Source of the DNA: a virus
Taxonomy: Duplodnaviria; Heunggongvirae; Uroviricota; Caudoviricetes
Reading direction: 5' to 3' (one strand)
Virus record (IMG/VR): IMGVR_UViG_2671180294_000017
Length of the DNA: 7,389 nucleotides
Shown: positions 1 through 7,389 of the stretch, in pieces
Numbering within the stretch: the stretch's first letter is position 1
How the letters are laid out: every line of letters begins with the position of its first letter
Notes under the pieces: model-generated
What the model was told of the DNA's origin: nothing
Databases searched by the model: none
Seen by the model: the letters and a program-made list of their open reading frames with translations, nothing else
Position numbers and translations under genes: made by a program

Positions 1-651
1 TTATGATTCGCACCACCAAACACCNNNNNNNNNNNNNNNNNNNNNNNNNNNNNNNNNNNNNNNNNNNNNNGGCAAATGTCCAGATATGATAAAATCAATA
101 TTTTTATACGAATCAATAAAACTTTGGAAATGACCGTGGAGTAATTTATCATTTAAAGGATAGCTCGCTGGAAAATCCCTTAAAATACTATCAAACTGAT
201 CTCCAAAAATAAGAAGATTGATGTGAAAAGAATTAGGTAAAGTTTCAACTAATGAACGTACCCTCGCAAACGGTGTAAAGTGGAAGTAAGCGTTTAAAAA
301 GTCCACATCTGACTGTCTTTTTTTATCTGAAAATAATGTATTATCGGTTGCACCCTGTATATAAGCCTCATGTTCACTTTTGATTTGATGCAATTTTTCT
401 ACTGTATAAGTGAATGGATCTCTATCAACAAGAATATGATCATTTGCACAAAGCAGGATAAGATTTTCATAAGAATTGTCATTTGCTAACAGGTCATCGC
501 CCCTTGGTCCTTTTGGGCTTTTGGCTATTACATGAGCCATTTGTCCGATGTGAACCTGCTCTTTAAAAAGAGAAGTTCGGCAAATATTACATTGCCCAGC
601 GGATAGTCCATACAATTTTTTTATTGCTGCTGTAGTAATTGCATCACTCAT
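1..651 (-). CDS. HNH (His-Me finger) nuclease-domain protein, 216 aa; N-terminal HNH motif with an unrecognised C-terminal domain of roughly 130 aa
   Basis: ORF track. Translation carries the HNH arrangement near the N-terminus: CNIC, then HIGQMAHVIAKSPKGPRGDD, then NLILLCANDHILVD (Cys pair, catalytic His, Asn, second Cys/His pair). ATG at 649-651 is preceded on the minus strand by AAGGA 8 nt upstream. TAA stop at 1-3. About 15 codons near the C-terminus lie in the masked run 25-70. Confidence 0.8.
   Translation of the reverse strand: MSDAITTAAIKKLYGLSAGQCNICRTSLFKEQVHIGQMAHVIAKSPKGPRGDDLLANDNSYENLILLCANDHILVDRDPFTYTVEKLHQIKSEHEAYIQGATDNTLFSDKKRQSDVDFLNAYFHFTPFARVRSLVETLPNSFHINLLIFGDQFDSILRDFPASYPLNDKLLHGHFQSFIDSYKNIDFIISGHLXXXXXXXXXXXXXXXXGVWWCES
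25..70. other. Masked/undetermined bases (46 N) inside the 3' part of the HNH gene
   Basis: Run of n in the sequence. Confidence 1.
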
Positions 652-2013: not shown

Positions 2014-2448
2014 TCAATTCAAGTACTCCAATAGTTCCTGTACTATTCCGAGTAGTCTTTTTTTATCCTTTGCATTTGGTGATCTAATCTTACTCATCAT
2101 TGCCAGATTCAAACATTCCGGTTTAAGCATCTGATGAAGGATCAGTATTGCCTCTACAATCATTACCTCTCGCATAGTTGCGAAGCACCATAGAATCGTT
2201 TTTGAGTACTGTTCACCATTTTCAATTTTGTTTTTAACGACATTGGAACTACTGAGGTACTCACGCCAGCCATTTTCCTTTGAAGTGGGCTTTAGCTTTC
2301 TCGCATCCTTAACCCGCTGATAGATTTGCTTAGCACCGACATAATTAGAACCATCCTCAAACTGAAAGATATAAACGAAACCAGCATATTCACCGGATAA
2401 CATTTCCTCCTCGCTCCAATCATCCGAGTATTTCCATTCACTCATCAT
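2014..2448 (-). CDS. GIY-YIG family nuclease-domain protein, 144 aa (catalytic domain only; homing-endonuclease-like)
   Basis: Translation contains GFVYIF, then after 9 residues YVGAKQIYQRVKDARK (the GIY...YIG pair plus the conserved downstream Arg), and later REVMIVEAILILHQMLKPECLN (the conserved Glu and Asn spacing seen in I-TevI and UvrC-type domains). AGGAA lies 6 nt upstream of the ATG at 2446-2448. TGA stop at 2014-2016. Confidence 0.8.
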   Translation of the reverse strand: MMSEWKYSDDWSEEEMLSGEYAGFVYIFQFEDGSNYVGAKQIYQRVKDARKLKPTSKENGWREYLSSSNVVKNKIENGEQYSKTILWCFATMREVMIVEAILILHQMLKPECLNLAMMSKIRSPNAKDKKRLLGIVQELLEYLN

Positions 2449-2484
2449 AAATATTCCTATAAATTCATTATAGGTATTTAGTAA
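2449..2484. promoter_or_regulatory. 36-bp divergent intergenic region with a 7-bp inverted repeat (cctataa 2456-2462 / ttatagg 2468-2474, 5-nt spacer), a minus-strand TATAAT (2467-2472) and a plus-strand TATAAAT (2458-2464)
   Basis: Read directly from the sequence. It is the only non-coding DNA between the divergently oriented GIY-YIG and lysozyme genes, so promoter and operator elements for both must overlap here or sit inside coding sequence. No -35 partner was identified. Confidence 0.3.
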
Positions 2485-2934
2485 ATGAGCGATTTAAAAA
2501 CACGATTAAAAGAATATGAAGGTACTAAAGAGTATCAGGCAAATTTGAAGTACTTCAGAAATGGGAAATTCTATCCATATGCTGATAGTTTAGGATGTAG
2601 TACTATTGTATATGGTCACTTAATTCAGGCGGGAGAAGATTTTAGTACTGGCATTACTGAAAGCGAAGCAGACAAGTTACTATCTCGCGATTTAGCCAAA
2701 ACAATTATGCAGGTACAGACATTAGGGTTAAATCTTCCCGATGACTGGAATGATTTTATTATTATCATGACCTTCCAGTTAGGTATTGGCGGGGTGAAGA
2801 AATTCCGTAAGATGTTAGCAGCCCTGAAAGCACATGATTACCTTGAAGCAATTAAACAGGCTAAGTGTTCTCTATGGTACAGGCAGACACCAAACCGTGT
2901 GAATTCCATGATTGCAGTACTTAAAAACAAATAA
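2485..2934 (+). CDS. Phage lysozyme (T4 e-type, glycoside hydrolase family 24), 149 aa; probable endolysin
   Basis: Translation aligns by eye with T4 lysozyme landmarks: LKEYEG (catalytic Glu), ADSLGCSTIVYGHLI (Asp/Thr and the GH motif), ITESEADKLLSRDL, MTFQLGIGGV, and SLWYRQTPNRV (compare T4 SRWYNQTPNR). No signal peptide or N-terminal hydrophobic segment. AGGT about 9 nt upstream of the ATG; TAA stop at 2932-2934. Confidence 0.92.
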   Translation: MSDLKTRLKEYEGTKEYQANLKYFRNGKFYPYADSLGCSTIVYGHLIQAGEDFSTGITESEADKLLSRDLAKTIMQVQTLGLNLPDDWNDFIIIMTFQLGIGGVKKFRKMLAALKAHDYLEAIKQAKCSLWYRQTPNRVNSMIAVLKNK

Positions 2935-2940
2935 AGAAAA

Positions 2941-2974
2941 GGCATAGTACGAATGACATACTATGCCTTTTTTT
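2941..2974. terminator. Bidirectional rho-independent terminator between the convergent lysozyme gene and the small membrane protein gene
   Basis: Perfect 9-bp stem ggcatagta (2941-2949) / tactatgcc (2959-2967) with a 9-nt loop, followed by TTTTTTT (2968-2974) on the plus strand. The A-rich stretch aaacaaataaagaaaa (2925-2940) gives a U-tract for the minus-strand transcript. Confidence 0.75.
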
Positions 2975-3245
2975 ATGGTCGTTGTTTCTGCTGAAGAATT
3001 GCAATAATCCTTTCAATCTTAACATCAAGTTCATGGATTTGTGTTTCCAGTTTACTTAGTGTATCTCTCATCTTATCCTGATCATCCTCAATACGGGAAA
3101 TACTACTTTCCAGTACAGCAATGGTAGTTTCAAGAGTAGCAACGCGAGTTAATAGATCATTCGTATCCTTTGTATTATCTCTAAAGATAGTATAAAGGAA
3201 TACGCATCCAGAAATAACAAGAGCTAAAATAGCACCGATATCCAT
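2973..3245 (-). CDS. Small single-pass membrane protein with a C-terminal coiled-coil, 90 aa; function unknown (candidate lysis-associated or superinfection-exclusion protein)
   Basis: ORF track. Residues 3-21 IGAILALVISGCVFLYTIF form one hydrophobic helix-length segment. The remainder, LLTRVATLETTIAVLESSISRIEDDQDKMRDTLSKLETQIHELDVKIERIIAILQ, is charged with heptad-like hydrophobic spacing. AAGGGA lies 7 nt upstream of the ATG at 3243-3245; TAA stop overlaps the terminator T-tract. Confidence 0.7.
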   Translation of the reverse strand: MDIGAILALVISGCVFLYTIFRDNTKDTNDLLTRVATLETTIAVLESSISRIEDDQDKMRDTLSKLETQIHELDVKIERIIAILQQKQRP

Positions 3246-3256
3246 ACTGAAATCCC

Positions 3257-3304
3257 TTTGTTGTTATTGTTATTGTTATTGTTATTGTTATTGTTATTGT
3301 TTTT
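3257..3304. repeat. Hexanucleotide microsatellite: six perfect tandem GTTATT units (3263-3298) with degenerate flanking units; AATAAC on the minus strand
   Basis: Read directly: ttg ttattg x6 tttttg. It fills the gap between the TAA stop of the 218-aa gene (3308-3310) and the ribosome-binding site and ATG of the 90-aa membrane protein gene. Confidence 0.9.
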
Positions 3305-3307
3305 GTA

Positions 3308-3964
3308 TTAATACCCTGTAAATGTCGCCAATGCTATCTGGATACCATTATTCCCCATTGCCTGGCGGTAGGTTTTCTGGTTCTTTGAAACGTACTGTAG
3401 ACTGAATGAAGTACTGGAATTACGCCTGATAACCAGACCAGAGTACCCAATTACTGTACCATCATCTGATATGTTCCCCGGACATTGTGACCAGCAGAAC
3501 CAGGGATCAGCTACTGGAGACGTTACCGTAATGGCAGTACTGAGATCGGTAGCCGCAGGTGCTGTCAAAAATCCCCTGATACGTGGCATTGTTGCCGCTG
3601 ATGCAGCAGACCAGATTAAAGTACCTTCTTCACTGAACACATCAAGAAAACCAGATGTGGGGGTAGCCGTGTGACTACTTGTCATGAACCTGCCCATGCC
3701 AGGCTGGAACATATAGGCACCAGGGAAACACCATGCCCCGTCTTTCTGTATCTGGAACCAGTACTGTGTTGTGTTCCTGTTAGCTACTACTGATGGCATA
3801 ACGAAACCGAGCGATCCACCATTACCGAAGGCACAGGTAAAGCCTGTGTAGTATCCCGTATCAGTTAGATTTCCCATGGCCTTTACTGCACCCGTCATTA
3901 TCGACTTGTTAGTACTATCTATAGTCAGTGCACCCGCTGAATTATATACCTCGAAACCTGCCAT
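3308..3964 (-). CDS. Hypothetical protein, 218 aa, Gly/Thr/Ser/aromatic-rich, no signal peptide; paralogous at its N-terminus to the upstream 98-aa protein; candidate tail-tip accessory or receptor-binding protein
   Basis: ORF track. Start ATG 3962-3964 lies 1 nt after the stop of the upstream gene. N-terminus MAGFEVYNSAGALTIDSTNKSIMTG matches the 98-aa protein's N-terminus, and a similar motif recurs at residues 105-120 (GFLDVFSEEGTLIWSA). TAA stop at 3308-3310. Confidence 0.75.
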   Translation of the reverse strand: MAGFEVYNSAGALTIDSTNKSIMTGAVKAMGNLTDTGYYTGFTCAFGNGGSLGFVMPSVVANRNTTQYWFQIQKDGAWCFPGAYMFQPGMGRFMTSSHTATPTSGFLDVFSEEGTLIWSAASAATMPRIRGFLTAPAATDLSTAITVTSPVADPWFCWSQCPGNISDDGTVIGYSGLVIRRNSSTSFSLQYVSKNQKTYRQAMGNNGIQIALATFTGY

Positions 3965-4262: not shown

Positions 4263-4419
4263 AGCTCTTACTCCTGTAAATCCTTTTCTTCATTCCAATT
4301 GTTTCTTTTCCGCTAATACTGAATGGGTTAGTACTGGTACTATTGAAAGTACGTTCATTAGATTTCATTTATGTATCCTTTTGAAATGAGGTTACAGTTA
4401 ATAATCCCTGAATTATTTA

Positions 4420-7389
<2,970 letters not shown>

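What the first reader, a model, noticed from the sequence alone, without database searches (positions are those of the whole stretch)
3257..3304. Hexanucleotide microsatellite placed exactly between a structural gene and the membrane-protein gene
Six perfect GTTATT units plus degenerate flanking copies sit between the TAA of the 218-aa gene and the ribosome-binding site of the 90-aa membrane protein gene. Tandem repeats of this length are prone to slipped-strand mispairing. A change in unit number would alter the distance between the upstream gene and the downstream start by 6 nt at a time, which could affect translational coupling, leader structure or a protein-binding site. This could make expression of the membrane protein variable within a phage population, a contingency-locus-like arrangement that is unusual in a phage late region. 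Alternatively the tract is a repeated binding site for a regulator.
Basis: partly seen in the sequence, partly recalled or inferred. Interest (0 to 1): 0.6.

Follow-up and report, generated by a model that had tools for sequence, protein, structure and literature searches.

The report
Variable six-base repeat in Shigella prophage
The repeat is a real, fast-changing six-base tandem repeat (1 to 10 perfect units in different isolates) in the untranslated leader of a small membrane-protein gene of a Shigella sonnei prophage, an ordinary kind of bacterial length polymorphism with no on/off switch anatomy and no demonstrated effect on expression.

Summary
Six perfect units (GTTATT on +, AATAAC on the coding minus strand) lie at 3263-3298, with degenerate flanking units. 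They sit in the 62-nt spacer between the TAA of the 218-aa gene and the Shine-Dalgarno sequence of the 90-aa gene.

The window is 100% identical to a Shigella sonnei chromosome, so this is a resident prophage, not a lysate. Across 25 public assemblies the spacer is 38, 44, 50, 56, 62, 68, 74, 80 or 86 nt, always in steps of 6. The 19 copies with 5-10 units differ by 0-1 base in 2 kb of flank.

Relatives in other genera carry only 0-2 units, in a conserved 34-46 nt A-rich leader downstream of a conserved promoter-like ATAAATA box.

The tract lies outside any ORF and outside any promoter spacer. It is predicted to be unstructured, and predicted ribosome-site accessibility is the same for 0-20 units. 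The hexamer is not enriched elsewhere.

The best reading is slippage-driven, near-neutral leader-length polymorphism. A graded effect through A-rich RNA binders (Hfq, S1) is possible but untested. The locus does not appear to belong to the S. sonnei MLVA26 panel. Interest is low to moderate.

The parts
3263..3298 (-). Six perfect AATAAC units (GTTATT on the + strand): the core of the VNTR
   Evidence: Unit number is 1-10 in homologous loci.
3246..3307 (-). Whole 62-nt spacer/leader: TAC AAAAAC (AATAAC)6 AACAAAGGGATTTCAGT
   Evidence: Its length is 38-86 nt in other assemblies, always in steps of 6.
3257..3304 (-). Run of 16 consecutive AAN triplets in the RNA sense, ending at the SD. This is the sequence class bound by the Hfq distal face (ARN repeats).
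   Evidence: The next longest ARN run in the window is 5 triplets. The motif definition comes from PMC4104026. Binding was not tested.
3253..3258 (-). Shine-Dalgarno AAGGGA, with the GGG run 8 nt (the AAGGGA hexamer 7 nt) before the ATG of the 90-aa gene
   Evidence: Read directly from the sequence. Relatives have AAGGA, GAGG or GGGAAG at the same place.
3306..3313 (-). TATTAATA: a degenerate remnant of the conserved promoter-like (T)ATAAATA box. It overlaps the last codon and the stop of the 218-aa gene.
   Evidence: Relatives have TATAAATA or [ACT]ATAAATA 34-46 nt upstream of the ATG. S. sonnei alleles lack 6 nt (TATAAA) relative to the 38- and 44-nt alleles.
2973..3245 (-). 90-aa gene downstream of the repeat: an N-terminal transmembrane helix continuing into one long coiled-coil helix. 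No family assignment.
   Evidence: AlphaFold model is a single helix over residues 3-87, pLDDT 94. Only sub-threshold coiled-coil Pfam hits. Weak PHROG hits including Rz-like spanin. No embedded lipoprotein ORF. 113 homologues in Enterobacteriaceae, all hypothetical or carrying only automated labels.
3308..3964 (-). 218-aa gene upstream of the repeat (DUF8377 / phrog_4524, function unknown). Part of a J-98aa-218aa module also present in phage HK639.
2937..2971 (-). Intrinsic-terminator-like hairpin (15-bp stem plus T run) directly after the 90-aa gene and shared with the convergent lysozyme gene. The 90-aa gene is the last gene of its transcription unit.
   Evidence: I2.
3213..3221 (-). CUUGUUAUU in codons 9-11 of the 90-aa ORF, complementary to AAUAACAA(G) of the repeat. 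This is a possible long-range pairing partner, not supported statistically.
   Evidence: I1, I4, I5.
2447..2453 (+). ATAAATA box 38 nt upstream of the lysozyme ATG (same box family)
4414..4420 (-). ATAAATA box overlapping the last base of the stop codon of the J-like tail gene (same box family)

Best explanation
The tract is a genuine hypermutable hexanucleotide VNTR, (AATAAC)n on the coding strand, produced by slipped-strand mispairing in the S. sonnei lineage of a widespread enterobacterial prophage.

It grew out of a pre-existing A-rich, AAN-periodic leader of about 38 nt. That leader lies between a conserved promoter-like ATAAATA box, at the stop codon of the upstream gene, and the Shine-Dalgarno sequence of a conserved 90-aa membrane-anchored coiled-coil gene.

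Changes in unit number lengthen or shorten this untranslated leader or intercistronic spacer in 6-nt steps. The tract lies outside ORFs and outside any promoter spacer, and it is intrinsically unstructured. It therefore cannot act as an on/off switch. It is most likely a near-neutral length polymorphism, tolerated in a prophage that is partly decaying in S. sonnei, with at most a graded effect on translation of the 90-aa gene.

Shown: the repeat, its polymorphism, its position, and the ancestral states. Inferred: slippage as the mechanism, neutrality, and the promoter nature of the box.
For: - Polymorphism. In 25 distinct assemblies the spacer is 38 (5 assemblies), 44 (1), 50 (2), 56 (4), 62 (6), 68 (1), 74 (2), 80 (3) or 86 nt (1), always in multiples of 6.
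- Hypermutability. The 19 copies with 50-86 nt spacers differ from the window by 0 and 0-1 substitutions in 1 kb on either side, apart from one IS insertion.
- Recurrent change. Two 5'-edge haplotypes, TACAAAAAC(AATAAC)n with n = 6, 8, 9, 10 and TAC(AATAAC)n with n = 5-8, each span several lengths.
- Not an assembly effect. Chromosome-scale assemblies differ: 53G has 5 units, CP026802 has 6, CP179990 has 10. The window equals CP026802 at 100%. HE616528 is S. sonnei 53G. The exact proteins are named S. sonnei on hundreds of contigs.
- Instability in reads. Many S. sonnei short-read contigs stop 1-9 codons before the 218-aa stop, or start 3-15 nt before the 90-aa ATG.
- Ancestral state. Copies whose flanks are about 3-5% diverged (one is Kosakonia) have 1 unit, and one near-identical copy has 2. 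Relatives at 74-87% identity (Scandinavium, Pluralibacter, IMG/VR) and the Enterobacter, Cronobacter and E. coli clades have 34-46 nt A-rich leaders with (AAT)3-5 or a single AATAAC.
- No switch anatomy. No sigma-70 promoter or terminator lies in the spacer. The fold z-score is +0.39. SD/AUG accessibility is 0.50-0.54 for n = 0-20. No Rfam family matches at threshold.
- Decay. IS elements interrupt J (53G, CP179990) or the 90-aa gene (GCA_026013135.1).
Against: - Neutrality is inferred, not measured.
- The leader is A-rich and AAN-periodic in nearly all lineages: runs of 4-6 triplets in 8 of 10. The box-to-ATG distance is tightly conserved, mostly 38-40 nt, in relatives. Leader composition and length may therefore be under selection, and a 12-48 nt expansion could matter.
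- A run of 16-24 AAN triplets next to an SD is exactly the kind of site Hfq binds in vivo in E. coli (PMC4104026).
- The 90-aa ORF is intact and 100% conserved in most S. sonnei copies, so the gene is not obviously dead.
- No read-level data were available to show within-culture switching.
Confidence: 0.68

Rival explanations
1. Expression rheostat. The (AAN)n tract is a variable-length binding platform for A-rich single-strand RNA binders immediately 5' of the SD. Candidates are the Hfq distal face, which takes 6 triplets per hexamer, and ribosomal protein S1. Unit number would then tune translation or stability of the 90-aa mRNA in a graded way and create heritable but reversible heterogeneity between lysogens. 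This resembles the AGAT repeat upstream of Moraxella uspA2.
For: - There are 16 consecutive AAN triplets abutting the SD in the window and 24 in CP179990. Relatives keep 4-6 at the same place.
- Hfq crosslinks to ARN repeats associated with SD sequences in E. coli (PMC4104026).
- SSRs upstream of ORFs can give graded expression, 3.4-fold for uspA2 (PMC7302503).
- The tract is unstructured and therefore available for binding.
- The locus is hypermutable.
- A weak CrcZ-like hit (25 bits) reflects the same motif content.
Against: - No binding or expression data exist.
- A-richness could be mutational bias of AT-rich phage intergenic DNA.
- The CrcZ hit is far below its threshold (95 bits) and was not reproduced.
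- Expansion is confined to one host lineage in which the prophage carries IS insertions.
- No preferred unit number is apparent among 19 copies.
Confidence: 0.2
2. RNA switch arm. AAUAACAA is the 5' arm of a conserved long-range helix with CUUGUUAUU (codons 9-11 of the 90-aa ORF) that encloses the SD and AUG. Multiplying the arm would change how often the ribosome site is enclosed.
For: - RNAalifold predicts this 8-bp helix on 9 diverged relatives, with one pair C-G / U-A / U-G.
- 93% of cells are paired, against 34-72% when the partner is slid.
- The helix appears in the MFE folds of 5 of 7 relatives and of the window.
Against: - Consensus energy is about 0 (-0.08 kcal/mol) and there is only one covarying pair.
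- 43 of 500 shuffles do as well.
- Duplex energies between leader and codons are not better than shuffled leaders in most lineages, with p = 0.007-0.66 and 0.66 for the window.
- Accessibility does not depend on n.
- The 3' arm is constrained by coding (LVIS).
Confidence: 0.05
3. DNA-level array of binding sites for a phage or host regulator, with one site per hexamer.
For: Only the regular tandem arrangement itself.
Against: - Functional relatives have 0-2 units.
- The hexamer is not enriched elsewhere in the window: 4 outside the tract, 10 in all, against 7.0 expected.
- A 6-bp period puts successive sites on different helix faces.
- Unit number is unconstrained at 5-10.
Confidence: 0.03
4. 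Assembly or sequencing artefact: the copy-number differences are errors in short-read assemblies.
For: Some short-read assemblies break at the tract.
Against: - Tracts of 30-66 nt are well inside read length.
- All lengths differ by exact multiples of 6 with perfect units.
- Independent chromosome-scale assemblies differ at 5, 6 and 10 units.
- Identical alleles recur in unrelated assemblies.
Confidence: 0.01

Closest known systems
Hexanucleotide VNTR loci of Shigella sonnei used for MLVA typing (SS9, SS10, SS11; Liang et al. 2007; Chiou et al., PMC3310650)
   Same: Same organism and a 6-bp unit. The copy range is similar: SS10 2-10, SS11 2-9, SS9 2-18. Alleles differ between otherwise clonal isolates, and the mechanism is replication slippage.
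   Different: The forward primers of SS1, 3, 6, 9, 10, 11 and 13 do not occur in the 7.4-kb window at up to 3 mismatches. The other 6-bp loci, SS15 and SS17, span only 2-4 and 0-3 copies. This appears to be an additional, unlisted locus. It lies in a prophage leader rather than being chosen as a neutral marker.
Simple-sequence contingency loci with repeats upstream of the ORF (Moraxella catarrhalis uspA2 AGAT repeat, uspA1 poly-G; PMC7302503)
   Same: A hypermutable SSR between the upstream signals and the start codon of a gene for a membrane or surface protein. It could give graded rather than on/off expression.
   Different: No expression effect is shown here. The unit is 6 nt in an unstructured A-rich leader. 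The host element is a prophage with IS damage. No reversible switching within a clone has been documented.
Hfq distal-face (ARN)n sites near Shine-Dalgarno sequences, and the Hfq-titrating sRNA CrcZ (A-rich CA motifs)
   Same: There are 16-24 uninterrupted AAN triplets abutting the SD. Tree et al. found ARN repeats associated with SDs as in-vivo Hfq sites in E. coli.
   Different: Known sites have 3-6 triplets. None is known to be a copy-number-variable microsatellite. It is not a CrcZ homologue: 25 bits against a gathering score of 95, and the hit was not reproducible. Binding was not tested.
T4-type late promoter TATAAATA
   Same: The box upstream of the leader in relatives is TATAAATA or ATAAATA. 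It sits at a fixed distance of about 38 nt from several start codons on both strands.
   Different: No gp55-like factor was looked for or found. The phage is a temperate siphovirus with a lambda-J-like tail. In S. sonnei the box is TATTAATA. Promoter activity is an inference.

Membership tests
VNTR / microsatellite (tandem repeat with copy-number polymorphism) | Head-to-tail copies of a short unit | tested here: met
   TRF reports period 6, 7.7 copies, 97% matches. Six exact units lie at 3263-3298.
VNTR / microsatellite (tandem repeat with copy-number polymorphism) | Unit number differs between strains while the flanks are conserved | tested here: met
   Nine spacer lengths (38-86 nt, steps of 6) occur in 25 assemblies. 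Flanks differ by 0-1 substitution per kb among the copies with 50-86 nt spacers (5-8 or 6-10 perfect units, depending on the 5'-edge haplotype).
Contingency (phase-variable) locus | Hypermutable simple-sequence repeat | tested here: met
   Assembly breaks at the tract are shown.
Contingency (phase-variable) locus | The repeat is placed so that unit changes switch expression, either in the ORF with a unit not divisible by 3, or between the -35 and -10 promoter elements | tested here: not met
   The tract is intergenic and the unit is 6 nt. No sigma-70 promoter contains it. Predicted SD accessibility is independent of n.
Contingency (phase-variable) locus | Reversible switching within a clonal population, with a phenotypic consequence | not testable with these tools
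   No read-level or expression data are available.
S. sonnei MLVA26 panel locus | The locus is amplified by the published primers or matches the published unit size and range | tested here: not met
   Forward primers of SS1, 3, 6, 9, 10, 11 and 13 (PMC3420240) are absent from the window. The remaining 6-bp loci, SS15 and SS17, have ranges of 2-4 and 0-3. The original primer table (Liang 2007) is not held, so the exclusion is strong but not complete.
Hfq distal-face (ARN)n binding site | At least 3-6 consecutive A-R-N triplets in single-stranded RNA, typically near the SD | tested here: met
   There are 16 AAN triplets at 3304-3257, ending at the SD. The region is unstructured.
Hfq distal-face (ARN)n binding site | Hfq actually binds and affects translation or stability | not testable with these tools
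   This needs CLIP or EMSA and delta-hfq reporters.
CrcZ sRNA (RF01675) | Score at or above the Rfam gathering threshold | tested here: not met
   25.2 bits against 95. The hit was absent in a second scan.

The most novel reading that the evidence does not exclude
The microsatellite is a length-programmable (AAN)n leader. By loading a variable number of Hfq hexamers, or S1, next to the ribosome-binding site, slippage would create heritable, reversible differences between sister lysogens in the level of a conserved membrane-anchored coiled-coil protein. That protein is always paired with a convergent phage lysozyme gene. This would be a prophage-borne translational rheostat affecting lysis or envelope-related functions. 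It would also be the first copy-number-variable Hfq site.
Probability: 0.1. Interest if true: 0.6.

Novelty: new member of a known kind. Interest (0 to 1): 0.3.

Why it matters
Practically, this is an extra, highly discriminating 6-bp VNTR in S. sonnei. Eight alleles occur among 19 near-identical copies. It is apparently outside the classical MLVA26 panel, it can be read directly from genome data, and it is a recurrent cause of contig breaks in short-read assemblies.

Biologically, it shows how a microsatellite can be born from an A-rich phage leader and expand once it passes two units. It also offers a natural allelic series, 1 to 10 units of pure AAN triplets next to a ribosome-binding site. 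That series could be used to test how leader length and Hfq or S1 loading affect translation.

If the tract proves neutral, it is simply an ordinary VNTR.

Tried and rejected
1. DNA searches of the phage collection (megablast and blastn) and of 5,426 complete E. coli genomes found nothing. Context therefore came from exact-protein look-ups and locus scans.
2. Searching the literature for the hexamer in all 12 rotations and strands, alone and together with 'Shigella', found no paper on this locus. Liang 2007 and Chiou 2009 are not held.
3. An in-silico test with MLVA primers was negative.
4. A sigma-70 promoter or terminator inside the spacer: none.
5. A structured RNA element was rejected. The fold z-score is +0.39 and there is no Rfam family at threshold.
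6. A conserved long-range helix between the leader and codons 9-11 showed one covarying pair. It is not better than controls and is kept only as a low-probability rival.
7. A dispersed regulator hexamer: no enrichment.
8. Coding potential of the tract was rejected. TAA falls in the 90-aa frame in every unit. Read-through of the 218-aa frame would only add poly-Asn and then stop, as read.
9. The 90-aa gene as a classical Rz/Rz1 spanin pair: there is no embedded lipoprotein ORF and only weak PHROG or Pfam coiled-coil hits.
10. I first suspected that the J gene is truncated in the window. Translation shows the ORF simply runs off the window end with no internal stop, so I withdrew that claim. IS disruption is documented only in other S. 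sonnei assemblies.
11. The metagenome scan and the second viral scan added only 3 new loci.

Full report
**Observation**

The window contains one tandem array: 3261-3306, period 6, 7.7 copies, 97% matches.
- All genes around it are on the minus strand.
- In the coding sense the region reads TAA (stop of the 218-aa ORF, 3310-3308), TAC, AAAAAC, (AATAAC)x6 at 3298-3263, then AACAAAGGGATTTCAGT, then ATG (3245-3243) of the 90-aa ORF.
- The six exact units are confirmed by pattern search.
- The tract is non-coding. Every unit puts TAA in the frame of the 90-aa ORF, and the 218-aa frame has already ended.

**What the element is in**

- Exact-sequence look-ups of the 90-aa, 218-aa, 98-aa and lysozyme proteins return hundreds of contigs. 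Among them are complete chromosomes (HE616528.1, CP026802.1, CP179990.1).
- HE616528.1 is Shigella sonnei 53G (PMC5447701).
- The proteins are named S. sonnei in the source records.
- The window is 100% identical to CP026802.1 over 5.4 kb.
- The gene order is a lambda-J-like tail gene, a 98-aa gene, the 218-aa gene (DUF8377), the 90-aa gene, then a terminator shared with a convergent T4-type lysozyme gene. A SegE-like GIY-YIG endonuclease gene follows.
- The J-98-218 module also occurs in temperate phage HK639.
- This is a chromosomal prophage. IS elements interrupt J in 53G and CP179990, and interrupt the 90-aa gene in GCA_026013135.1.

**Polymorphism**

I extracted the spacer from every fetched locus. 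In 25 distinct assemblies it has these lengths:

| Spacer (nt) | Assemblies |
|---|---|
| 38 | 5 |
| 44 | 1 |
| 50 | 2 |
| 56 | 4 |
| 62 | 6 |
| 68 | 1 |
| 74 | 2 |
| 80 | 3 |
| 86 | 1 |

- All differences are exact multiples of 6 made of perfect AATAAC units, 1 to 10 of them.
- The 19 copies with 50-86 nt spacers differ from the window by 0 substitutions in the upstream 1 kb and 0-1 in the downstream 1 kb.
- Two 5'-edge haplotypes, AAAAAC-first and AATAAC-first, each occur with four different lengths. Length has therefore changed repeatedly on both backgrounds.
- Chromosome-scale assemblies differ at 5, 6 and 10 units, which rules out an assembly artefact.
- Many short-read S. sonnei assemblies end 1-9 codons before the stop of the 218-aa gene. 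Others begin 3-15 nt before the ATG of the 90-aa gene. The partial proteins are 209-217 aa, or carry an N-terminal (Q)RDFS- or S- extension. The tract is thus a recurrent contig breakpoint. That fits long or heterogeneous tracts, although it is indirect evidence.

**Origin**

- Copies whose flanks are about 3-5% diverged have a 38-nt spacer, TATAAATACAAAAACAATAACAACAAAGAGG..., with one unit.
- One near-identical copy has two units.
- The S. sonnei alleles additionally lack 6 nt (TATAAA) at the 5' edge.
- More distant relatives come from Scandinavium, Pluralibacter and IMG/VR or metagenome contigs at 74-87% identity, and from Enterobacter, Cronobacter and E. coli clades found through the 90-aa protein. 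They keep the 88-90-aa gene and the convergent lysozyme. Their leaders are 34-46 nt, A-rich, and carry (AAT)3-5 or a single AATAAC before an AAGGA- or GGGAAG-type SD.
- The hexamer array is therefore a recent expansion of a proto-repeat in a leader that is SSR-prone everywhere.

**Position relative to signals**

- No sigma-70-like promoter or terminator lies in the spacer. A 15-bp-stem terminator follows the 90-aa gene.
- A conserved box, ATAAATA (often TATAAATA), lies 34-46 nt upstream of the 90-aa ATG in all non-sonnei relatives.
- The same box sits about 38 nt upstream of the lysozyme gene, directly after the J stop, and upstream of the next gene on the other side.
- 27 of 37 occurrences in ten loci lie 34-62 nt upstream of a start codon, and only 2 lie inside a same-strand ORF.
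- From established knowledge, TATAAATA is the T4 late-promoter consensus. I infer that the box is a promoter element, so the repeat lies in the 5' leader of the 90-aa mRNA. This is not shown.
- In S. sonnei the box reads TATTAATA.

**Function tests possible in silico**

- The leader with its flanks is not more stable than shuffles (z = +0.39).
- No Rfam family reaches threshold. A 25-bit CrcZ-like hit, against a gathering score of 95, reflects A-rich motif content and was not reproduced.
- I rebuilt the mRNA with 0-20 units in both polycistronic and leader-only contexts. The mean unpaired probability of SD through AUG+3 stays at 0.46-0.54 across both contexts, and at 0.50-0.54 in the polycistronic one. 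The tract is structurally inert.
- AAUAACAA can pair with CUUGUUAUU in codons 9-11, and RNAalifold draws that helix on nine relatives with one covarying pair. However, 43 of 500 shuffles do as well. Leader-to-coding duplex energies are mostly no better than those of shuffled leaders. I keep this only as a weak rival.
- The hexamer is not enriched elsewhere and relatives have at most two copies. This argues against an array of regulator sites.

**What remains possible**

- In the RNA sense the tract is 16 uninterrupted AAN triplets abutting the SD, and 24 in CP179990. Relatives keep 4-6 there in 8 of 10 lineages.
- ARN repeats associated with SD sequences are the in-vivo Hfq binding motif in E. 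coli (PMC4104026).
- From general knowledge, A/U-rich unstructured leaders also recruit ribosomal protein S1.
- Repeats upstream of ORFs can give graded expression, as with uspA2 AGAT at about 3.4-fold (PMC7302503).
- A graded, factor-mediated effect of unit number is therefore plausible but untested.

**Comparison with known loci**

- S. sonnei is known for hypervariable VNTRs used in MLVA. The 6-bp loci SS9, SS10 and SS11 span 2-18, 2-10 and 2-9 copies (PMC3310650).
- The forward primers of the seven commonly used loci are absent from the window.
- The other 6-bp loci, SS15 and SS17, have much narrower ranges.
- The locus therefore appears not to be in MLVA26. The original primer table could not be read.
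- No paper in the held library mentions the motif together with Shigella.

**Verdict**

The finding is a real, hypermutable hexanucleotide VNTR in the leader of a conserved small membrane-protein gene of an S. sonnei prophage. It is a new member of a well-known kind. The contingency-switch and regulator-array readings are not supported by the anatomy. Near-neutral slippage polymorphism is the best explanation (about 0.68). A graded Hfq/S1-type rheostat is the main, more interesting alternative (about 0.2 overall, and about 0.1 for its full form as a true copy-number-variable Hfq site).

Noticed in passing
window 2447-2453 (+), 4414-4420 (-), degenerate copy 3306-3313 (-); L019-L030 around 3510-3657, 4660, 5455-5498: A conserved ATAAATA / TATAAATA box, identical to the T4 late-promoter consensus, sits at a near-constant distance of about 38 nt upstream of several start codons on both strands in this prophage family. 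The genes concerned are the 90-aa gene, the lysozyme gene, the gene after J and the GIY-YIG-side gene. 27 of 37 occurrences in ten loci lie 34-62 nt upstream of an ATG and only 2 lie in a same-strand ORF. It is probably a phage-specific promoter element. In S. sonnei the copy before the VNTR has been altered by a 6-nt deletion.
   Followed up: partly
S. sonnei public assemblies (proteins P0001, P0117, P0120, P0126-P0131): Many short-read S. sonnei assemblies break on both sides of the VNTR. Partial 218-aa proteins lack 1-9 C-terminal residues on at least 18 contigs. Partial 90-aa proteins start 1-5 codons upstream of the ATG. This suggests long or mixed-length tracts in the sequenced cultures.
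   Followed up: partly
L004/L012 (53G), L008/L014 (CP179990.1), L017/L040 (GCA_026013135.1): IS elements (rve-family transposases) interrupt the J-like tail gene in two S. sonnei chromosomes and the 90-aa gene in a third. The prophage is therefore decaying in at least some lineages.
   Followed up: partly
L059-L062, L067-L069 (Enterobacter, Cronobacter): In these clades the 89-aa membrane/coiled-coil gene follows the J gene directly, with no 98-aa or 218-aa genes, yet it is still followed by the convergent lysozyme gene. The small membrane protein and the lysozyme thus form the conserved pair, which hints at a lysis- or envelope-related role.
   Followed up: no
L027 4658-4691, L025, L019, L023 (leaders of the 90-aa homologue): Other lineages carry trinucleotide microsatellites, (ATA/AAT)3-5, at the same position in the leader. 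Enterobacter copies differ in an A4/A5 run. The leader is repeat-prone across the whole family.
   Followed up: no
window 25-70, 810-832, 971-1573: Three runs of N (masked sequence) lie in the window. The largest replaces about 520-600 nt within the genes downstream of the GIY-YIG endonuclease gene, so ORFs listed there are artefacts of X-translation.
   Followed up: no
window 2900-2973 (+): There is a weak sub-threshold Rfam hit to Salmonella sRNA STnc40 (27 bits against 45, E = 0.047). It covers the 3' end of the lysozyme gene and the shared bidirectional terminator hairpin, and probably reflects only the terminator.
   Followed up: no
window 2014-2448 (-) and 1-651 (-): A SegE-like GIY-YIG homing endonuclease gene and an HNH-like gene (weak hit) lie next to the lysozyme gene. 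The GIY-YIG gene varies in called length (129-144 aa) between S. sonnei assemblies.
   Followed up: no
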